30,723 bases of DNA, from positions 1 through 30,723 of IMG/VR virus record IMGVR_UViG_2648501461_000010. One strand, given 5' to 3'. Below the pieces are notes generated by a model. The model was given only the letters and a program-made list of their open reading frames with translations, was not told the DNA's origin and did not search any database. The stretch is from a virus. Taxonomy: Duplodnaviria; Heunggongvirae; Uroviricota; Caudoviricetes. The position numbers and the translations under genes were made by a program. Positions 411 to 11,480 of this stretch are shown here, in pieces. Every line of letters starts with the position of its first letter. Within the stretch, counting starts at the first letter, position 1.

Positions 411-1259
411 CTATTTAATACTCAGCAACTGCTCGACGGTCATATTTTTAATTGCGCCCCGGTTTATGAGAGTCCATCCCTGCTTTTCCAGATAAAAACG
501 GAAAGTATCCAGAGTACAGACCAGTGCGCCATCAGGAACGGTTTCGGTGAATTTGATGTAGCCGTGTTCGTCGAAGCGGATAACCAGGGTTCGGTCATCA
601 CCCGGGATTATTTTGTCAGCGGGTGTGGTGTTATTCCGGCGCAGTTCTTCCTCCATGCGGTCGAACTCGGCAATGTAGGCTTCCTTGAATGCAGCGGCCT
701 TTTTGCCGGTGAAGCCCATCACCAGGAAAACGAAGCCGTTTTTGGTGATTTGGTAGGCATTGTAGGTATTGCCACGGTGCTCGAATTTAACCCGCGAAAA
801 GTTGCTGGTTAAAAAGCGTTCAGAACATTCGAGGGCCTCTATTTTTTGAACAACATGGTGATGCTGCTTGCCGAAGAATTCTGCGATCGCAATAGACGTA
901 GTGACTGCGCGACCATTTTCAATGGTTACGTCAGGGTGAGAAAGGGTAAGGGTAGTAGCCATGATGGCATCCTCAAGTGTTAAGTTAATTAACTCACCAC
1001 CGAGGCTTTCCACGACCATAAGGGTGGCGAGACGTACAGGGGTGGAAATACCGGTCACTCGAGAACCCGGCCAGCCTTGCAGCTGCCCTGCACGCCCCAC
1101 CATTATCTGAATGTGGCTGTGCTTAACGCATAAAAAAACCGCTTCGGCGCGGTTATGCGCTCGAGTAACTTTCGGGTTTCCACGCCCGGCACCCGGTTTA
1201 TGAGGTGCAGGTGCACTATAATTCCACCCGTACTGGTTTTCAATAGCTACATTCAACAT
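411..1259 (-). CDS. Rha-family phage regulatory protein
   Basis: Central segment (VTTSIAIAEFFGKQHHHVVQKIE...GNTYNAYQITKNGFVFLVMGFTGKKAAAFKEAYIAEFDRMEE) fits the Rha domain. An internal ATG at 962 has a good RBS (GAGGA, 7-nt spacer) and would start the protein just before the Rha domain, so the true start may be 962 rather than 1259. Confidence 0.6.
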   Translation of the reverse strand: MLNVAIENQYGWNYSAPAPHKPGAGRGNPKVTRAHNRAEAVFLCVKHSHIQIMVGRAGQLQGWPGSRVTGISTPVRLATLMVVESLGGELINLTLEDAIMATTLTLSHPDVTIENGRAVTTSIAIAEFFGKQHHHVVQKIEALECSERFLTSNFSRVKFEHRGNTYNAYQITKNGFVFLVMGFTGKKAAAFKEAYIAEFDRMEEELRRNNTTPADKIIPGDDRTLVIRFDEHGYIKFTETVPDGALVCTLDTFRFYLEKQGWTLINRGAIKNMTVEQLLSIK

Positions 1260-1437
1260 TTTCTCTTACCTTTCATCACCGAAGTGAACTTTGTTGATGC
1301 GGTGTCTGGTGCCTCCAGGTGACGTTAACCAGTTAACAATTAACGCCGGATACAGAGAATCCACCCATAACACTGTTTTTGGTTTTAACTGTTCCGCGTG
1401 CGCTCAGCCGCATTCACCGCATCACAAAATTCACTTT

Positions 1438-1495
1438 AAAAAGGGCGGCAGAGCAGTCACGGAGTAAAACTGATACCGCCAAACGTCACCAGAAA
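1438..1495 (-). ncRNA. dicF: DicF-like small RNA (cell-division inhibitor sRNA of Qin/Rac-type prophages)
   Basis: Minus-strand sequence UUUCUGGUGACGUUUGGCGGUAUCAGUUUUACUCCGUGACUGCUCUGCCGCCCUUUUU matches my recollection of E. coli DicF, including the 3' GC stem plus U-run; it lies downstream of a ydfA-like leftward operon as in Qin. Identification is from memory, not a search. Confidence 0.55.
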
Positions 1496-2576: not shown

Positions 2577-2757
2577 GCTGACCTCATTTCCCCTTAACGC
2601 CGGGGGAGCGGAACAAAAACCTGCTGCATAGTTAAAGTTGAACCCTGCCGTCATGTTCTTACGCCTCGGGCTGGCTACTTAACCCCTGACCACTGCCGGG
2701 TAACTCGAAGTATTGCCCTGCGTTCTGTGGGGCGGGGTGGGTAGTGGAAATAATCTA

Positions 2758-2795
2758 CAATTAAAAACTGTTTTGTGTCAACAGTTTTTAATTGT
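2758..2795. promoter_or_regulatory. candidate left operator (OL-like) palindrome
   Basis: Perfect 16-bp inverted repeat ACAATTAAAAACTGTT / AACAGTTTTTAATTGT with a 6-bp spacer, placed between the terminator of the repressor-TA operon and the leftward early gene; near-identical to the palindrome between the repressor and cro-like genes. Confidence 0.45.
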
Positions 2796-2805
2796 TGTGT
2801 TGGGC

Positions 2806-2830
2806 AAAAAAACTCCCTCGAATGAGGGAG
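2806..2830 (-). terminator. rho-independent terminator of the repressor/toxin-antitoxin operon
   Basis: On the minus strand, stem CTCCCTC / GAGGGAG with a 4-nt loop followed by a 7-U run, 18 nt downstream of the toxin stop. Confidence 0.55.
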
Positions 2831-2847
2831 TGTGAAAATTGTTCAGT

Positions 2848-3135
2848 TCAGATAGGGAAGGGAAATTGTCGGCGGGCATGCACAATATTTGCAATTTCAA
2901 TGCTTGAAGTTGCTACTCGGTACAAAACGATATAATTAGGGTGAACCACAATTTCCCGCAAACCGGATACTCGATCACTTGGCGGATATAGATATGGATG
3001 CTCAGAGAGGGCTAAAACAGACGTTTCAATCCGTATTTTTAGTCTGCGTGCTGCAGGAATATTTTCCTTAGCAATATAGGCTACGATCTGACGCAAATCA
3101 TCGCGAGCAGATGGTAGCCACAAAATGGGTAACAT
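2848..3135 (-). CDS. type II toxin, RelE/ParE family
   Basis: 95-aa protein with the typical ParE/RelE pattern (RDDLRQIVAYIA...REIVVHPNYIVLYRV...EIANIVHARR); its start overlaps the upstream antitoxin stop by 1 nt (TAATG). Confidence 0.75.
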   Translation of the reverse strand: MLPILWLPSARDDLRQIVAYIAKENIPAARRLKIRIETSVLALSEHPYLYPPSDRVSGLREIVVHPNYIVLYRVATSSIEIANIVHARRQFPFPI

Positions 3136-3326
3136 TACTCGCTCCTGTTAGTTACAGCAATTTGAGCAATAAGATTCTCCATTTCAGCCATTACCTCATC
3201 ATGTGGAATTGAGGGACGAGGGTCTGCAAGGCTTGACGCCACTTTAGCGCGTAACCATTCGTTGTAACTGTTTTCTTGTTCGGTAGTTTCGAATTCTGAA
3301 ACTATCGGAGAAAGGGCTGTACTCAT
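3135..3326 (-). CDS. putative antitoxin of the ParE/RelE-family toxin
   Basis: 63-aa acidic ORF immediately upstream of and translationally coupled to the toxin; GGAG RBS; begins 27 nt after the repressor stop. Assigned mainly by position and size. Confidence 0.6.
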   Translation of the reverse strand: MSTALSPIVSEFETTEQENSYNEWLRAKVASSLADPRPSIPHDEVMAEMENLIAQIAVTNRSE

Positions 3327-3353
3327 GGCATAACTCCTCTTCTTGTACTGTGG

Positions 3354-3755
3354 TCACGCCCGGCGGCTTTTTTGTGCCGCCAACCACCGGGCAATGGTTT
3401 CTTCCATTGATTTTTTCTTGTCTTTGATTTCTTGAAGCATTTTTTCTTGGTCTTCCTCTGGAAACGCACTAAAAGCCTGGAGCAGTTCGCGTTGACGAGG
3501 ACCAATTTTCATCGTGTCAGGGGTGAAAATTTGCTCCCCCTCTTCAGGAGGCAATAAAAACCAATGCAATGGATGCCCTGTAACCTCAACCAGTTTATCC
3601 AAACTTGAGGCTTTAGGTGTAGCCTTACCGCTGACCCATTGTTGAACAGTTTGTTGTGTCACACCAATTCTACGGGCAAGCTCAGCCTGGCTCCATCCAG
3701 TTTCCTGAAGAAGCTTGCTGATTCTGTACATAGATACTTCTAGGGCGTTCATCAT
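3354..3755 (-). CDS. prophage repressor, HTH XRE family (DicA/CI-like)
   Basis: N-terminal helix-turn-helix (SQAELARRIGVTQQTVQQW) and a C-terminal region resembling DicA; divergent from a Cro-like gene. The start could instead be the in-frame ATG at 3731 (MYRISKLL...). Confidence 0.8.
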   Translation of the reverse strand: MMNALEVSMYRISKLLQETGWSQAELARRIGVTQQTVQQWVSGKATPKASSLDKLVEVTGHPLHWFLLPPEEGEQIFTPDTMKIGPRQRELLQAFSAFPEEDQEKMLQEIKDKKKSMEETIARWLAAQKSRRA

Positions 3756-3791
3756 TATTCAATTTTACAGGTAAATACTGTTAAAAGCATC

Positions 3792-3830
3792 ACAATAAAA
3801 AACTGTTGATTGTGTACAGTTTTTTATTGT
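3792..3830. promoter_or_regulatory. candidate right operator (OR-like) palindrome in the repressor/cro divergent promoter region
   Basis: Perfect 15-bp inverted repeat ACAATAAAAAACTGT / ACAGTTTTTTATTGT with a 9-bp spacer in the 109-bp gap between the divergent repressor and cro-like genes. Confidence 0.5.
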
Positions 3831-3864
3831 AGGCTTTGCTTATAGTTTTTTAGAGGAGAGCAAA

Positions 3865-4137
3865 ATGCTAGATAGCACTCGCGAAAAAATTAGGCAGAAA
3901 TACACTCAAGCTGAAATAGGTCGTTATATGGGGGTCGCTCAACAGACTGTTTGGCAATGGTTTAGCTTTGACGTTCCCCCAAAGCAGGTAATTCCGTTAT
4001 GTCAGCTAATGAAGTGGGAAGTTACCCCGCATGAAATTCGCCCTGATATTTATCCTAACCCAACCGACGGTTTACCTGTTGGATTCAAGGTTAACACATC
4101 AAATGCACCGGAGCTGATTCATGAAAATCAAGCATGA
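3865..4137 (+). CDS. Cro-like HTH regulator (YdaS/DicC-like)
   Basis: 90-aa protein with an HTH (YTQAEIGRYMGVAQQTVWQW); divergent from the repressor; strong RBS GAGGAGAG; followed by a YdaT homologue as in Rac. Confidence 0.7.
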   Translation: MLDSTREKIRQKYTQAEIGRYMGVAQQTVWQWFSFDVPPKQVIPLCQLMKWEVTPHEIRPDIYPNPTDGLPVGFKVNTSNAPELIHENQA

Positions 4138-4546
4138 ACACATCCGCATGGCAATGAATGCCTGGGCGTATCCAGACGGTGAGAAAGTTCCAGCAGCTGA
4201 AATAGCCCGGACTTATTTCGAGCTGGGAATGACGTTCCCGGAACTGTATGACGACAGCCATCCGGAAGCCCTGGCTCGCAATACCCAGAAAATTTTCCGC
4301 TGGGTAGAGAAAGACACCCCTGATGCAGTTGAAAAAATTCAGGCGTTGTTACCAGCGATCGAAAAGGCAATGCCACCTTTGCTGGTGGCCAGAATGCGCA
4401 GCCACAGTTCAGCTTATTTTCGGGAGCTGGTGGAGACGCGGGAGCGACTGGTGAGAGACGCTGATGATTTTGTCGCAGTGGCAATCGCCGGTTTCAATCA
4501 GATGAACCGTGGTGGCCCGGCAGGAAATGCTGTGGCAGTACATTGA
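4121..4546 (+). CDS. ydaT: YdaT-family protein (CII-like regulator, reported toxic in Rac)
   Basis: 141-aa sequence (MKIKHEHIRMAMNAWAYPDGEKVPAAEIARTYFELGMTFPELYDDSHPEALARNTQKIFRWVEKDTPDAV...) closely matches my recollection of E. coli Rac YdaT; it overlaps the cro-like gene's 3' end. Confidence 0.75.
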   Translation: MKIKHEHIRMAMNAWAYPDGEKVPAAEIARTYFELGMTFPELYDDSHPEALARNTQKIFRWVEKDTPDAVEKIQALLPAIEKAMPPLLVARMRSHSSAYFRELVETRERLVRDADDFVAVAIAGFNQMNRGGPAGNAVAVH

Positions 4547-4617
4547 CTGACAATAGCCATATCGAATCGCTTCCGGCAACTCGTGAGTAAAAAGATTCGG
4601 TATCAGAAGAGGTGAGT

Positions 4618-5688
4618 ATGGCTAACGCCTGGCTCAGATTATGGCATGACATGCCAAATGACCCTAAGTGGCGAACAATTGCCAGGGTGTCAGGGCAGCC
4701 AATTGCAACAGTGATGGCAGTGTATATCCACCTCCTGGTGAGCGCGTCACGAAATGTCACGCGAGGTCACATTGATGTCACGACAGAAGATTTGGCAAGT
4801 GCGCTCGACGTGACAGAAGAGGTAATTGATTCAATTTTGCAGACGATGCAGGGGCGGGTACTTGATGGTGATTTAATCACTGGATGGGAAAAACGCCAGG
4901 TGCTTAAAGAGGACAACGGCAATATTTCGCAAACCGCAAAATCTCCTGCAGAGCGCAAGAGGGCGCAGCGAGAGAGGGAAAGAAAGCGGGAACAAAATGG
5001 CGATTGTCACGGCGCGTCACGAAATGTCACGCACATGTCACGACGAGTCACGACAGATAAAGATACAGATAAAGATACAGATCAAGAAGATCAAAACACT
5101 ATGGTCCATGGCGTAAAAAACGCCACGAACCAGGCAGGGGATGTTCAGACCGTCAATCTTGGTCAGCCAGCAGGCACGACACCGGAAGCCGATTCAGCGT
5201 ATGCGCTGAAAGCCGATTCGGGCGCTGTGCAGCAGGTGATGACCGCAAGGCCGGAGCAATCACACCAACTGCAGCAGCCTGAAGCCGATTCCGCCATTCA
5301 GCGGGAAGCCGATCGGGTAGTCCCGGAAAACACCGGGCAGCCTGTGGGACGAGTGGATTATCCGGATGTGTTCGAACAGGTCTGGCGGGAATACCCGTTG
5401 CGTGCTGGGGCAAACCCGAAGAAATCCGCTTTCAGTGCCTGGAAGGCCAGATTACGCGAGGGGGTGCCACCAGAGGCCATGCTGGATGGTGTGAGGCGTT
5501 ACGCAAGATACCTGGCGGCTACCGGGAAAACGGGAACGGAATTTGTTCAGCGAGCGACGACGTTTTTTGGACCGGACCGGAATTTTGAAAACCCCTGGTT
5601 GCTCCCGGTAAGCGGCACGAACAACCAGCGTTGTGTGAATCATATTTCTGAACCGGATAACGAAATTCCGCCGGGCTTCAGGGGGTAA
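4618..5688 (+). CDS. replication initiator / replisome organizer (O-like)
   Basis: N-terminus (ANAWLRLWHDMPNDPKWRTIARVSG) fits the phage replisome-organizer motif; the coding sequence contains two iteron arrays and an AT-rich tandem repeat, as lambda O contains ori. Start placed at the ATG at 4618 (RBS AGAGG); the ORF track uses the GTG at 4612. Confidence 0.65.
   Translation: MANAWLRLWHDMPNDPKWRTIARVSGQPIATVMAVYIHLLVSASRNVTRGHIDVTTEDLASALDVTEEVIDSILQTMQGRVLDGDLITGWEKRQVLKEDNGNISQTAKSPAERKRAQRERERKREQNGDCHGASRNVTHMSRRVTTDKDTDKDTDQEDQNTMVHGVKNATNQAGDVQTVNLGQPAGTTPEADSAYALKADSGAVQQVMTARPEQSHQLQQPEADSAIQREADRVVPENTGQPVGRVDYPDVFEQVWREYPLRAGANPKKSAFSAWKARLREGVPPEAMLDGVRRYARYLAATGKTGTEFVQRATTFFGPDRNFENPWLLPVSGTNNQRCVNHISEPDNEIPPGFRG
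4742..4784. repeat. iteron array 1 (GTCAC repeats) inside the initiator gene
   Basis: GTCAC at 4746, 4756, 4766 and 4777, spaced 10-11 bp; the 21-bp unit GCGCGTCACGAAATGTCACGC recurs at 5012. Confidence 0.6.
5002..5093. repeat. iteron array 2 plus AT-rich tandem repeat (candidate replication origin)
   Basis: GTCAC at 5006, 5016, 5026, 5037 and 5047 at about 10-bp (one helical turn) spacing, followed by tandem GATAAAGATACA x2 and an A-rich tract. Confidence 0.6.
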
Positions 5689-6307: not shown

Positions 6308-6994
6308 ATGACCCCAATAAAAATATTTATGACTATTGCTGATTTCAAACGGCCTAAATTGGAGCTCCCAAACGGGGCAAACAAACTACTACTGCACTCT
6401 TGCTGTGCTCCATGTTCCGGTGAAGTGATGGAGGCGCTTCAGGCCTCGGGAATCGACTACACCATCTTTTTCTACAACCCGAACATTCATCCTCAGAAAG
6501 AGTATTTAATTCGTAAGGATGAAAATATTCGCTTTGCTGAACAACACGGCGTGCCGTTTATCGATGCTGATTACGACACCGACAACTGGTTTGAACGTGC
6601 CAAAGGAATGGAATGGGAGCCTGAGAGGGGGATCCGTTGTACCATGTGTTTTGACATGCGTTTTGAGCGGACAGCGTTGTACGCTGCTGAAAATGGTTTC
6701 AGTGTGATCAGCAGTTCACTGGGCATTTCACGCTGGAAAAATATGCAGCAGGTTAACGAGTGTGGGCGGCGAGCTGTTGCGCATTATCCGGGTATGGTGT
6801 ACTGGGATTATAACTGGCGCAAGCAGGGCGGCTCGTCCCGTATGATTGAAATCAGCAAGCGCGAAAAATTCTATCAGCAGGAATATTGTGGCTGTGTGTA
6901 TTCTCTGCGCGATACCAATCTACACCGCAAATCTCAGGGGCGCCCTCTTATCAAAATTGGCCAACTCCACTACGGAAAAGAAGAGAAGGAGTGA
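6308..6994 (+). CDS. queH: epoxyqueuosine reductase QueH (DUF208 family)
   Basis: N-terminal [11 protein letters not shown] motif plus downstream conserved Cys residues and a size of about 225 aa are characteristic of QueH. Alternative start ATG at 6329. Confidence 0.75.
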
Positions 6995-7231
6995 TTTTAT
7001 GGATCACCTTTCTGATTGATTTCATATTGGCGAGGTGACGTGAGTTAAGTAGAATTGCTGCGGGTGCTTGAGGCTATCTGCCTCAGGCATGAACACCAAA
7101 AGGCAGATAGAGAAAAGCCCCAGTTAACATTACGCGTCCTGCAAGACGCTTAACATTAATCTGAGGCTCAATCCATGCTGAACACATGTAGGTTAGCCTC
7201 TTACGTGCCGAAAGGCAAGGAGAAGCAGGCT

Positions 7232-7387
7232 ATGAAGCAGCAAAAGGCGATGTTAATCGCCCTGATCGTCATCTGTTTAACCGTCATAGTGACGGCACTG
7301 GTAACGAGGAAAGACCTCTGCGAGGTACGAATCCGAACCGGCCAGACGGAGGTCGCTGTCTTCACAGCTTACGAACCTGAGGAGTAA
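7232..7387 (+). CDS. Hok/Gef-family type I toxin
   Basis: MKQQKAMLIALIVICLTVIVTALVTRKDLCEVRIRTGQTEVAVFTAYEPEE matches the Hok consensus (transmembrane helix, LTRK..LCE, EVA..AYE); RBS AAGGAGAAG; followed by the typical structured 3' end and terminator. Confidence 0.8.
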   Translation: MKQQKAMLIALIVICLTVIVTALVTRKDLCEVRIRTGQTEVAVFTAYEPEE

Positions 7388-11170: not shown

Positions 11171-11246
11171 GGCCCTTTAGCTCAGTGGTGAGAGCGAGCG
11201 ACTCATAATCGCCAGGTCGCTGGTTCAAATCCAGCAAGGGCCACCA
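11171..11246 (+). tRNA. tRNA with CAU anticodon (tRNA-Ile2 type, lysidine-dependent, or tRNA-Met)
   Basis: 76-nt cloverleaf by manual folding, anticodon loop CUCAUAA, 3' CCA encoded; close to my recollection of E. coli ileX. Confidence 0.8.
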
Positions 11247-11247
11247 A

Positions 11248-11324
11248 CCGCCACTAGCTCATCAGGAAAGAGCGTCAACCCTTTAAGTTGAGAGTGCGAG
11301 GTTCGAGTCCCCGGTGGCGGTCCA
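11248..11324 (+). tRNA. tRNA-like gene, anticodon UUU (Lys) with atypical C33
   Basis: 77-nt cloverleaf by manual folding: 7-bp acceptor stem, D-loop with GG, TPsiC loop UUCGAGU, encoded CCA; anticodon stem UCAAC/GUUGA with loop CCUUUAA. Position 33 is C instead of the near-universal U, and the T-stem has one A-C mismatch. Confidence 0.55.
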
Positions 11325-11326
11325 GT

Positions 11327-11402
<76 letters not shown>

Positions 11403-11405
11403 TAT

Positions 11406-11480
<75 letters not shown>

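What the first reader, a model, noticed from the sequence alone, without database searches (positions are those of the whole stretch)
2758..3830. Two near-identical long palindromes bracket the repressor/TA module
ACAATTAAAAACTGTT-6-AACAGTTTTTAATTGT at 2758-2795 and ACAATAAAAAACTGT-9-ACAGTTTTTTATTGT at 3792-3830 share the motif ACAAT(A/T)AAAAACTGT. One lies in the repressor/cro divergent region and the other just beyond the terminator of the repressor-TA operon, upstream of the leftward early genes, which is the OR/OL arrangement. They are unusually long and perfect compared with lambda operators.
Basis: seen in the sequence. Interest (0 to 1): 0.45.

Follow-up and report, generated by a model that had tools for sequence, protein, structure and literature searches.

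The report
Prophage repressor operator pairs (OL/OR)
The two long palindromes are most likely the left and right operator sets of a Rac/CP-933P-like E. coli prophage switch, each made of two adjacent 15-bp phage-434-like repressor sites flanking a promoter -35 box; this is an ordinary kind of switch whose particular sites seem not to have been described.

Summary

Each arm is itself a 15-bp ACA-N9-TGT site.

In relatives from five other genera, sites sit at the same offsets (-75, -51, -26) from the repressor ATG. A second pair lies beyond variable cargo. The conserved columns are the ACA/TGT ends and the promoter hexamers.

A weight matrix built only from relatives ranks these five sites as the top five in the 30.7-kb window.

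The repressor's DNA-binding domain is most like phage 434 repressor (TQQTVQQ versus TQQSIEQ). 434 operators are ACA-N8-TGT with the same ACAAT/ACAGT half-sites. The Cro-like protein also carries QQT.

Both palindromes lie inside the immunity-specific segment (about 2743-4109) that differs from CP-933P, where PaaR2, YdaS, OR and OL are experimentally established with other sequences.

Verdict: OL/OR operators of a heteroimmune PaaR-type switch, a new member of a known kind. No binding data exist.

The parts
2757..2771 (.). OL1: promoter-proximal 15-bp operator ACAATTAAAAACTGT, between the -35 and -10 of PL (left arm of the left palindrome)
   Evidence: PWM from relatives scores it 19.9 bits. 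The equivalent site is conserved in relatives.
2781..2795 (.). OL2: distal 15-bp operator ACAGTTTTTAATTGT, abutting the -35 of PL (right arm of the left palindrome)
   Evidence: PWM 19.8 bits. It is identical in the O157:H7 copy, whereas OL1 and the spacer differ there.
2776..2781 (-). PL -35 hexamer TTGACA, in the spacer between OL1 and OL2
   Evidence: Promoter scan gives TTGACA-18-TAGATT, 10 of 12 matches. TTGACn is conserved at this place in six relatives.
2752..2757 (-). PL -10 hexamer TAGATT; its first T is the last base of OL1
   Evidence: Relatives have TAGATT, TAGCAT or TAATCT at the same place. DNA homology with CP-933P resumes just downstream, at 2742.
2812..2831 (-). Intrinsic terminator of the repressor-paaA-parE operon (8-bp stem with 5 GC pairs, then T7)
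   Evidence: Predicted RNA fold -13.8 kcal/mol, z = -5.5.
3767..3781 (.).
   Evidence: PWM 18.6 bits, fifth best of the window. It sits at -26 from the repressor ATG in the window and in five relatives in strict form; Morganella keeps a near-match there (ACAGTTTTTATCGGT).
3792..3806 (.). OR2: 15-bp operator ACAATAAAAAACTGT, abutting the -35 of PR; centred at about -44 from both the PR and PRM starts
   Evidence: (20.6 bits).
3816..3830 (.). OR1: 15-bp operator ACAGTTTTTTATTGT between the -35 and -10 of PR
   Evidence: (20.6 bits).
3806..3811 (+). PR -35 hexamer TTGATT, in the spacer between OR2 and OR1
   Evidence: GTTGA is invariant in 7 of 7 aligned relatives. Same geometry as PL. The assignment is inferred; the simple scan did not report it.
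3830..3835 (+). PR -10 hexamer TAGGCT (TAnnnT conserved), 18 nt after the -35
   Evidence: TGTA...T is conserved in 7 of 7. Inferred by position from PL. It matches the consensus poorly (3 of 6).
3762..3767 (-). PRM -10 hexamer TAAAAT, six nt upstream of the repressor ATG at 3755, which implies a leaderless mRNA
   Evidence: TAnAAT and its distance to the ATG are conserved in all relatives. Leaderless paaR2 was shown experimentally in CP-933P (PMC8630535).
3354..3755 (-). Repressor (133 aa): 434-like HTH N-terminal domain, linker, and a PaaR2-like C-terminal helical domain; no S24 peptidase domain
   Evidence: Pfam HTH_3, E = 1.7e-13. Best PDB sequence match is 434 repressor, E = 2e-5. The C-terminal 98 aa are 42% identical to PaaR2. 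AF2 model has mean pLDDT 83.6.
3135..3326 (-). PaaA-type antitoxin (cargo between the repressor and OL)
   Evidence: Pfam PaaA2, E = 1e-21. PDB 3ZBE, E = 1.5e-22.
2848..3135 (-). ParE-type toxin (cargo)
   Evidence: Pfam ParE_toxin, E = 4e-16. ParE2 (5CW7), E = 2e-38.
3865..4137 (+). Cro-like (YdaS-family) regulator with recognition helix AQQTVWQW
   Evidence: Pfam YdaS_toxin, E = 1.6e-9. Alignment with relatives. No BLAST similarity to CP-933P YdaS.
4121..4546 (+). YdaT (CII analogue); it lies outside the immunity-specific segment
   Evidence: Strong full-length sequence matches to PDB 3C4R (E = 2.4e-89, nearly identical in the printed alignment) and to CP-933P YdaT 8BT1 (E = 1.3e-78).

Best explanation
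The two palindromes are the left (OL) and right (OR) operator clusters of the lysogeny switch of a Rac/CP-933P-like lambdoid prophage.

The binding unit is a 15-bp pseudo-symmetric site, ACA-N9-TGT (family consensus ACARTWAWTWAYTGT). Each palindrome is two such sites in mirror orientation, 24 bp centre to centre. One site lies between the -35 and -10 of an early promoter: PR rightwards into the cro-like gene and ydaT, PL leftwards into the DUF1391...DicF operon. The other site abuts the -35 on its upstream side. A third site, OR3, occupies the same position in the repressor's own leaderless promoter.

The 133-aa repressor has a 434-like helix-turn-helix with Gln-Gln at the start of the recognition helix and a PaaR2-like C-terminal helical domain. 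Dimers of it are inferred to bind OR1+OR2 and OL1+OL2 cooperatively and shut PR and PL. Repressor at OR2 (about -44 from the PRM start, next to a poor -35) is inferred to activate its own promoter. OR3 would give negative autoregulation at high repressor levels. OL-OR looping over 1035 bp is possible.

The Cro-like protein carries the same QQT at the start of its recognition helix. It is inferred to use the same sites with a different order of preference.

Shown here: the sequence anatomy, the conservation pattern, the linkage to the immunity module and the protein similarities. Inferred: binding, the order of occupancy, activation and looping.
For: 1. The repeats are real and non-random.

2. 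The five ACA-N9-TGT sites are the only strong matches in 30.7 kb. A PWM trained only on relatives' sites scores them 18.6-20.6 bits. The next hit scores 11.4, and the null fifth-best score never exceeded 10.8 in 200 shuffles.

3. Sites sit at -75, -51 and -26 from the repressor ATG in the window and, with all three in strict ACA-N9-TGT form, in Salmonella, Raoultella and Pluralibacter. Morganella keeps the -75 and -51 sites in strict form; Serratia and K. michiganensis keep only the -26 site strictly and have near-matches at the other two. These repressors are 69-82% identical to the window's (the alignment also holds others down to 32%). A second pair of sites spaced 23-25 bp lies 0.5-1.3 kb downstream, beyond different cargo genes.

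4. In the ungapped seven-sequence alignment of OR, the invariant columns are the ACA/TGT ends, GTTGA (-35 of PR), TA...T (-10 of PR) and TAnAAT (-10 of PRM). Site centres and spacers vary.

5. PL is a good sigma-70 match, TTGACA-18-TAGATT, with OL1 between the hexamers. The same layout is seen in six relatives.

6. The best PDB sequence match of the repressor is the 434 repressor DNA-binding domain, with TQQTVQQ aligned to TQQSIEQ. The annotated 434 operators in record OL657226.1 are ACA-N8-TGT with half-sites ACAAT, ACAGT, ACAAG and ACAAA. The reference 434 operator used in binding studies is ACAATNNNNATTGT (PMC1636474).

7. Repressor and Cro-like proteins of the family both keep QQ at the start of the recognition helix.

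8. Comparison with CP-933P shows the TA genes and ydaT are homologous, but the repressor N-terminal domain, the cro gene and both operator regions are unrelated. DNA homology resumes at 2742 (10 bp beyond the PL -10) and at about 4110. Both palindromes therefore lie inside the immunity-specific cassette.

9. In CP-933P, PaaR2 and YdaS footprint on OR, and both repress PR, PRM and a PL located beyond the TA genes. paaR2 is leaderless there, and PaaR2 octamerizes (PMC8630535).

10. In the O157:H7 copy (repressor 98% identical) all three OR sites are unchanged while the OR2-OR1 spacer differs at 2 nt. At OL, one arm changed (T to A at site position 6, still within the consensus) without a compensating change, and the spacer gained 1 nt.
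Against: There are no binding, footprint or transcription-start data for this immunity type.

The PR -10 (TAGGCT) and the PRM -35 are poor consensus matches. PR was not picked up by the simple scan.

The sites are 15 bp, one base pair longer than 434 operators, so transferring the 434 contact scheme is an analogy.

The PWM training sites were chosen with the ACA-N9-TGT pattern, so only positions 4-12 are an independent test.

OR2 and OR1 show slightly more mirror complementarity across relatives than shuffled controls: 87.5% versus 82.6% of cells, 6 of 500 shuffles as high, and covariation score 0.167 versus 0.083. Independent sites would not require this.

By structure alone, the N-terminal domain matches many XRE-type HTH proteins as well as it matches 434.
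Confidence: 0.84

Rival explanations
1. Each 39-bp palindrome is one indivisible operator, read as a whole by a two-fold symmetric tetramer (or octamer) of the repressor, rather than two separable 15-bp sites.
For: The arms are perfectly complementary in this window. There is a weak excess of mirror covariation between OR2 and OR1 across relatives, including a double change at the inner half-sites in Serratia. PaaR2, which shares the C-terminal domain, is reported to be an octamer in solution (PMC8630535). R-M controller proteins with the same fold bind paired inverted repeats as tetramers (fold hits 1y7y and 4jcy; C-box description in PMC9638921).
Against: OR3 is a single site with the same ACA-N9-TGT form and is conserved on its own. 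Arm-to-arm identity falls to 10-13 of 15 in relatives, while the ACA/TGT ends mostly stay. The O157:H7 OL has a mismatch between arms and a 10-nt spacer, and the Raoultella OL sites are spaced 23 bp. The covariation test does not control for relatedness.
Confidence: 0.08
2. The palindromes act as nucleic-acid hairpins (AU-rich terminators, RNA stability elements or DNA cruciforms), not as protein-binding sites.
For: If transcribed, they would fold stably, at -15.7 to -19.0 kcal/mol with z-scores of -3.8 to -6.8. The lenient terminator scan lists the left palindrome on the minus strand. That palindrome lies just downstream of the operon terminator.
Against: The stems have only 3 GC pairs and no U-tract follows them. 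With the inferred promoters, both elements lie upstream of the PL, PR and PRM start points and are not part of those transcripts. The -35 hexamer sits in the 'loop' and the -10 abuts the stem in every relative. Uncompensated arm changes occur in natural variants. The right palindrome has no terminator context.
Confidence: 0.03
3. The palindromes are bound by another regulator: the CII-like YdaT tetramer, or a host nucleoid protein attracted by the AT-rich DNA.
For: The spacer of the right palindrome contains TTGATT, which is a YdaT half-site. In Rac, YdaT also binds the racR-ydaS intergenic region (PMC11879457).
Against: The full YdaT box (TTGATT-N6-AATCAA) is absent from the palindromes. It is found, with one mismatch, at 4114-4131 across the ydaT start codon, as in Rac and CP-933P. 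YdaT matches the CP-933P protein strongly over its full length (E = 1.3e-78), while the operator regions are unrelated. The palindromes therefore track the repressor and cro genes, not ydaT. TTGATT is explained as the PR -35.
Confidence: 0.03

Closest known systems
CP-933P immunity region of E. coli O157:H7 (paaR2-paaA2-parE2 / ydaS-ydaT; Jurenas et al. 2021, PMC8630535)
   Same: The gene order is the same: repressor, PaaA antitoxin, ParE toxin, terminator, then OL/PL on the left, and a divergent cro-like gene plus ydaT on the right. The repressor promoter appears leaderless. PL lies beyond the TA genes and resembles PR. The repressor C-terminal domain is homologous (42% over 98 aa), ParE matches ParE2 strongly over its full length (PDB 5CW7, E = 2.3e-38), and YdaT matches the CP-933P protein (8BT1, E = 1.3e-78).
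   Different: The repressor N-terminal DNA-binding domain and the Cro-like protein are unrelated in sequence. CP-933P operators are 18-bp palindromes built on GTTTAGTAA, with four IRs/three ORs and three OLs. Here there are three 15-bp ACA-N9-TGT sites at OR and two at OL. This is a different immunity specificity. It is probably the paaR1-paaA1-parE1 paralogue of O157:H7, because a 98%-identical repressor occurs in O157:H7 genomes. That naming is an inference.
Phage 434 cI/Cro and their OR/OL operators
   Same: The repressor N-terminal domain is the best sequence match in the PDB. Gln-Gln starts the recognition helix, and a Gln aligns with Gln33 of 434. The operators have ACA...TGT ends, ACAAT/ACAGT half-sites and A/T-rich uncontacted centres. 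OR is tripartite, with O1 and O2 over PR and O3 over PRM.
   Different: The sites are 15 bp (N9) rather than 14 bp (N8). Site spacing is 24-25 bp rather than 22-23 bp. OL has two sites, not three. The repressor has no LexA-like S24 cleavage domain. The Cro-like protein belongs to the YdaS family, not the 434 Cro family.
Rac prophage RacR/YdaS/YdaT switch (PMC9638921, PMC11879457)
   Same: It is a short, non-cleavable repressor divergent from ydaS-ydaT, with three inverted-repeat operators in the intergenic region. A YdaT box spans the ydaT start codon; the near-identical box lies at 4114-4131 here.
   Different: RacR operators are (T/A)TAGGC-N3-GCCTA(T/A), and O3 overlaps the racR coding sequence. 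Rac has no TA cargo.
Lambda OR/OL
   Same: The logic is the same: divergent PR and PRM with three operators, a distant OL/PL, 24-bp centre-to-centre spacing of O1 and O2, a leaderless repressor mRNA, and a cargo slot (rexAB in lambda) between the repressor gene and OL.
   Different: Lambda has 17-bp operators of unrelated sequence, three OL sites and a repressor with an S24 autocleavage domain.

Membership tests
Lambdoid OR/OL operator system (repressor/Cro bistable switch) | Repeated dyad-symmetric sites overlap divergent PR/PRM promoters between the repressor and cro genes | tested here: met
   Three ACA-N9-TGT sites lie at 3767-3830, overlapping the conserved -35/-10 of PR and the -10 of PRM.
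Lambdoid OR/OL operator system (repressor/Cro bistable switch) | A second cluster of the same sites overlaps a leftward early promoter distal to the repressor operon | tested here: met
   Two sites at 2757-2795 straddle TTGACA-18-TAGATT on the minus strand. This is conserved in relatives with different cargo.
Lambdoid OR/OL operator system (repressor/Cro bistable switch) | The sites co-vary with the immunity (repressor and cro) genes | tested here: met
   Both clusters lie inside the segment that is non-homologous to CP-933P. The E. coli group with 64-67% identical repressors (helix AQQSVQKW) has the same layout but different site sequences.
Lambdoid OR/OL operator system (repressor/Cro bistable switch) | Repressor and Cro bind the sites and repress PR and PL | not testable with these tools
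   This needs EMSA, footprinting or reporter assays. It has been shown only for the CP-933P analogue (PMC8630535).
Phage 434-type operator and repressor | 14-bp operator ACAA-N6-TTGT (ACA-N8-TGT) | tested here: not met
   The sites here are ACA-N9-TGT, 15 bp. The 434 sites read from OL657226.1 are N8. The half-site sequences do match.
Phage 434-type operator and repressor | Five-helix HTH domain with Gln-Gln at the start of helix 3 and Gln at the position of 434 Gln33 | tested here: met
   phmmer alignment to 1PER/2R63 pairs TQQTVQQ with TQQSIEQ. AF2 model helices are at 4-19, 23-30, 34-41, 49-59 and 63-67. The fold is shared with many XRE proteins.
Phage 434-type operator and repressor | LexA-like (S24) C-terminal autocleavage domain | tested here: not met
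   There is no Peptidase_S24 hit. The C-terminus is two helices, homologous to PaaR2.
PaaR-PaaA-ParE three-component module (CP-933P type) | A regulator gene is followed by paaA and parE in one operon | tested here: met
   Pfam PaaA2 E = 1e-21 and ParE_toxin E = 4e-16. The paaA and parE reading frames abut at 3135, and a terminator follows parE.
PaaR-PaaA-ParE three-component module (CP-933P type) | The regulator is homologous to PaaR2 | tested here: inconclusive
   Only the C-terminal ~98 aa align (42% identity, E = 2e-20). The N-terminal DNA-binding domains are unrelated.
PaaR-PaaA-ParE three-component module (CP-933P type) | Operators of the GTTTAGTAA type | tested here: not met
   The CP-933P intergenic sequence, read from L093, has no similarity to 3756-3864.
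Rho-independent terminator | GC-rich stem followed by a U-tract | tested here: not met
   The stems have 3 GC pairs out of 15-16. The tails are AGAUUAU, UGUGUUG, AGGCUUU and GAUGCUU.

The most novel reading that the evidence does not exclude
The perfect 39-bp mirror symmetry is functional in itself. In this reading, a two-fold symmetric tetramer or octamer of this PaaR-type repressor reads all four half-sites of an O1+O2 pair at once and bridges OL and OR. Alternatively, the palindromes extrude as cruciforms under supercoiling and tune the switch. The arms would then co-evolve as a unit. The weak mirror covariation between OR2 and OR1 in relatives is the only hint.
Probability: 0.12. Interest if true: 0.5.

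Novelty: new member of a known kind. Interest (0 to 1): 0.3.

Why it matters
This immunity type is common. About 510 of 5,426 complete E. coli genomes carry this OR region, including O157:H7 strains. Related versions occur in Salmonella, Klebsiella, Raoultella, Serratia, Pluralibacter and Morganella.

The switch controls a ParE toxin module and a leftward operon that includes the DicF sRNA. Knowing the operators gives a concrete regulon and a way to predict cross-immunity between cryptic prophages.

It also offers a natural variant of the classic 434 recognition problem: the same half-sites and Gln-Gln helix, but one extra central base pair and a non-cleavable, PaaR2-like oligomerization domain. 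The family shows a cargo slot between the repressor gene and OL that is filled by different genes in different hosts.

None of this overturns the known logic of lambdoid switches.

Tried and rejected
1. The single genome-contig scan with the repressor alignment returned almost only generic HTH proteins. Relatives were fetched by exact-protein look-ups instead.

2. The Foldseek search of the AF2 model against the PDB found the generic XRE fold (SinR, C-proteins, 434, P22 C2). It did not discriminate a closest relative.

3. The YdaT-box pattern was searched for as a possible reader of the palindromes. It lies elsewhere, at 4114-4131.

4. The raw count of ACA-N9-TGT in the whole window is not above chance (9 versus 7.75 expected). 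Only the clustering, the A/T-rich centres and the PWM scores make the five sites stand out.

5. The operators of the E. coli group with 64-67% identical repressors (L086) could not be reduced to ACA-N9-TGT. They look like ACTTTnAAAGT cores in the same layout. I did not derive a residue-to-base code from this.

6. A literal search of the open literature for the four arm sequences gave one unrelated hit. The original paaR1/paaR2 paper (Hallez et al. 2010) is not held, so I cannot exclude that it shows the paaR1 promoter region.

7. No phage in the INPHARED collection has a repressor more than 60% identical.

8. I considered reading the sites as TGT-N-ACA units across the spacers and rejected it. 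N would vary from 8 to 10, and the conserved outermost ACA and TGT would be left as orphans.
Full report
**Observation.** The window holds two perfect inverted repeats. One is at 2757-2772/2780-2795 (16-nt arms, 7-nt spacer) and the other at 3792-3806/3816-3830 (15-nt arms, 9-nt spacer). The shared 15-mer ACAATWAAAAACTGT occurs four times, which are the four arms. Shuffles give 0.12 expected, and none of 100 reached four.

- an HTH_3 repressor of 133 aa without a peptidase domain (3354-3755, minus strand);
- a PaaA2-family antitoxin (3135-3326, minus) and a ParE toxin (2848-3135, minus);
- a divergent YdaS-family Cro-like gene (3865-4137) and ydaT (4121-4546);
- a canonical terminator hairpin with a T7 run at 2831-2812 on the minus strand, between parE and the left palindrome.

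**Anatomy.** Each arm is itself pseudo-symmetric, with ACA at one end and TGT at the other, nine bases apart. Searching for ACA-N9-TGT finds the four arms plus a fifth site, ACAGGTAAATACTGT, at 3767-3781. The site centres in the divergent region are therefore 3774, 3799 and 3823 (25 and 24 bp apart). Those on the left are 2764 and 2788 (24 bp apart).

On the minus strand the left element carries a good sigma-70 promoter, TTGACA-18-TAGATT. The -35 lies in the 'loop' and the -10 starts on the last base of the proximal site. The right element has the mirror layout on the plus strand: TTGATT at 3806-3811, 18 nt, then TAGGCT at 3830-3835.

On the minus strand, TAAAAT (3767-3762) lies six nt before the repressor ATG at 3755. 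This predicts a leaderless mRNA. The fifth site fills the spacer of that promoter. OR2 is centred near -44 of both divergent promoters, next to a poor -35 for the repressor promoter.

**Relatives.** The repressor family (69-82% identical for most members) occurs in Salmonella, Serratia, Raoultella, Klebsiella, Pluralibacter and Morganella. A second E. coli group is 64-67% identical. I fetched loci by exact-protein look-up.

With the repressor on the plus strand, ACA-N9-TGT sites lie at -75, -51 and -26 from its ATG in the window, Salmonella, Raoultella and Pluralibacter. Two of the three are strict matches in Morganella. Serratia and K. michiganensis have near-matches.

A second pair of sites, 23-25 bp apart, lies 0.5-1.3 kb downstream. 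It flanks TTGACn and is followed by TAGATT-like hexamers. The genes between the repressor and this pair differ. Here and in the second E. coli group they are the PaaA/ParE module. In Salmonella, Raoultella, Klebsiella and Pluralibacter they are unrelated ORFs. In Morganella nothing is called before the contig ends, about 380 bp beyond the pair.

In an ungapped alignment of seven OR regions, the invariant columns are the ACA/TGT ends, GTTGA (PR -35), TA...T (PR -10), TAnAAT (PRM -10) and the start codon. Site centres and spacers vary.

A weight matrix built only from the relatives' sites ranks the five window sites as the top five of 30.7 kb, at 18.6-20.6 bits. The next hit scores 11.4. The fifth-best score in 200 locally shuffled windows never exceeded 10.8. 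The end triplets were used to pick the training sites, so only positions 4-12 are an independent test. The family consensus is ACARTWAWTWAYTGT.

**Who reads the sites.** By sequence, the best solved relative of the repressor is the DNA-binding domain of phage 434 repressor (E = 2e-5). TQQTVQQ aligns with TQQSIEQ, so Gln34, Gln35 and Gln39 here correspond to Gln28, Gln29 and Gln33 of 434. From established structural work on 434, those three glutamines read the ACAA half-site.

I read the annotated 434 operators from record OL657226.1. They are ACAAACTTTCTTGT, ACAATGTATCTTGT, ACAGTTTTTCTTGT, ACAATGGAGTTTGT, ACAATATTTATTGT and ACAATCTTCCTTGT. All are ACA-N8-TGT. The reference operator used in 434 affinity studies is ACAATNNNNATTGT, with uncontacted central bases read indirectly (PMC1636474).

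The sites here have the same half-sites (ACAAT, ACAGT) and A/T-rich centres, but one more central base pair. The HMMER alignment places a one-residue insertion in the loop after the recognition helix. Whether that accommodates the extra base pair is speculation.

The Cro-like protein has AQQTVWQW at the equivalent place. Both proteins keep QQ throughout the family. The AF2 model (pLDDT 83.6) shows a five-helix N-terminal domain, a disordered linker (about residues 68-85) and two C-terminal helices. Fold search returns the generic XRE fold and does not discriminate.

**Link to the immunity module.** The closest studied system is CP-933P of E. coli O157:H7. There PaaR2 and YdaS footprint on the intergenic region. 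Both repress PR, PRM and a PL found beyond paaA2-parE2. paaR2 is leaderless, and PaaR2 is reported to be an octamer. The operators there are 18-bp palindromes built on GTTTAGTAA (PMC8630535).

I rebuilt the start of paaR2 from the paper's primers and fetched a CP-933P-type locus. Comparison shows the following:
- ParE, PaaA and YdaT are homologous. ParE matches ParE2 (PDB 5CW7) at E = 2.3e-38 and YdaT matches CP-933P YdaT (8BT1) at E = 1.3e-78, both over their full length.
- The repressors share only the C-terminal ~98 residues (42% identity).
- The Cro-like proteins have no detectable similarity.
- DNA homology stops at window position 2742 on the left, 10 bp beyond the PL -10, and resumes at about 4110 on the right.

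Both palindromes therefore lie inside the immunity-specific cassette (about 2743-4109) and travel with the repressor N-terminal domain and cro.

Rac has a third specificity, TTAGGC-N3-GCCTAA in three copies (PMC9638921). The E. coli group with helix AQQSVQKW keeps the same layout, with OL an inverted copy of OR, but uses different sites.

**Operator or hairpin?** As RNA the palindromes would fold at -16 to -19 kcal/mol. However, the stems have three GC pairs, no U-tract follows, and the lenient scan lists only the left one. With the inferred promoters, both lie upstream of the start points.

Natural variants argue for protein sites. About 510 of 5,426 complete E. coli genomes carry this OR region, most at 95-99% identity. 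In an O157:H7 copy (repressor 98% identical) the three OR sites are unchanged, while the OR2-OR1 spacer differs at two positions. At OL, one arm changed from T to A at position 6, a W in the consensus, with no compensating change in the other arm. The spacer there gained one base. Across genera, arm-to-arm identity is 10-14 of 15.

One observation points the other way. OR2 and OR1 are somewhat more complementary across relatives than shuffled controls: 87.5% versus 82.6% of cells, with 6 of 500 shuffles as high, and a covariation score of 0.167 versus 0.083. Relatedness is not controlled in this test. The effect could also reflect symmetric tetramer binding or homogenisation of the arms. I keep this as the basis of the novel reading.

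**Other candidate readers.** The YdaT box (TTGATT-N6-AATCAA) is not in the palindromes. It is found at 4114-4131 across the ydaT start codon, as in Rac and CP-933P. YdaT is conserved between prophages whose operators are unrelated.

**Mechanism proposed.** In the repressed state, repressor dimers occupy OR1+OR2 and OL1+OL2, probably cooperatively, since the 24-bp spacing matches lambda OR1-OR2. This blocks PR and PL. The operon driven by PL contains the DUF1391 gene and, further on, DicF, isrK and C4 RNAs. Repressor at OR2 is placed to activate the weak, leaderless repressor promoter. OR3 scores lowest, and in most relatives G or C lies at inner positions on one side of the site, so it would give autorepression at high repressor levels. 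The C-terminal helical domain shared with PaaR2 could allow OL-OR bridging over 1035 bp. The Cro-like protein would use the same sites. The sequence anatomy, conservation, linkage and protein similarity are shown here. Binding, order of occupancy, activation and looping are inferred by analogy with 434, lambda and CP-933P.

**Novelty.** This kind of system is textbook, and its PaaR2 version has been dissected. The sites of this immunity type were not found in the searchable literature. The original paaR1/paaR2 paper is not held. O157:H7 is reported to have a second paralogous paaR-paaA-parE system (PMC4803016; PMC8630535), and O157:H7 genomes carry a 98%-identical copy of this repressor. This is therefore probably the paaR1 type, but that naming is an inference. 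I rate it a new member of a known kind, of modest interest.

Noticed in passing
window 4114-4131: CTGATTCATGAAAATCAA is a one-mismatch match to the YdaT box TTGATT-N6-AATCAA. The ydaT start codon (4121) lies in its spacer, as described for Rac and CP-933P. It is probably the YdaT (CII-like) site of a PRE-type promoter.
   Followed up: partly
window 1020-1494, minus strand: Rfam finds DicF (1443-1494), isrK (1132-1208) and C4 antisense RNA (1020-1107) just upstream of, and overlapping the 5' part of, the Rha/Ash-domain ORF at 411-1259. This resembles a P1-like c4/ant antirepressor arrangement downstream in the PL operon. It could be how a repressor without a cleavage domain is inactivated.
   Followed up: no
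window 2587-2742: The transcript leader just after the PL -10 is 96% identical to CP-933P, although the adjacent operators are unrelated. Its start, CCAACCCACCCCGCCCCACAGAACGC, recurs in relatives from other genera. It is a conserved 5' leader of unknown role, and it marks the left boundary of the immunity cassette.
   Followed up: partly
window 4755-4815 and 5005-5042: Six TGTCACG repeats cluster inside the O-like replication gene (4612-5688). They look like origin iterons.
   Followed up: no
L082, L088, L089, L090, L091 versus window 2848-3326: The slot between the repressor gene and OL carries different cargo in different hosts: PaaA/ParE here, unrelated ORFs of 112-306 aa in Salmonella, Raoultella, Klebsiella and Pluralibacter. 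In Morganella no gene is called there and the contig ends about 380 bp past OL. It is a moron slot like lambda rexAB.
   Followed up: partly
L086 3410-3500 and 4461-4502: An E. coli group with a 64-67% identical repressor (recognition helix AQQSVQKW), also followed by PaaA/ParE, has the same OR/OL layout (a 42-nt inverted copy) but different sites with ACTTTnAAAGT cores. It is a further immunity specificity.
   Followed up: partly
window 7062-7237 and 11171-11480: A sok antisense RNA lies next to the hokD-type toxin gene. A cluster of four tRNA genes (Met, Lys, Thr, Gly) lies inside the prophage. An epoxyqueuosine reductase (QueH) gene is at 6308-6994.
   Followed up: no
L084 3426-3464 (Serratia) and L089 3426-3464 (K. 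michiganensis): In these two relatives the inner half-sites of OR1 and OR2 are both degenerate (AGT/ACT and AGT/ACC instead of TGT/ACA). In Serratia the two changes are mirror-symmetric, and there the centre forms a new palindrome, CAGTTGATAATCAACTG.
   Followed up: no
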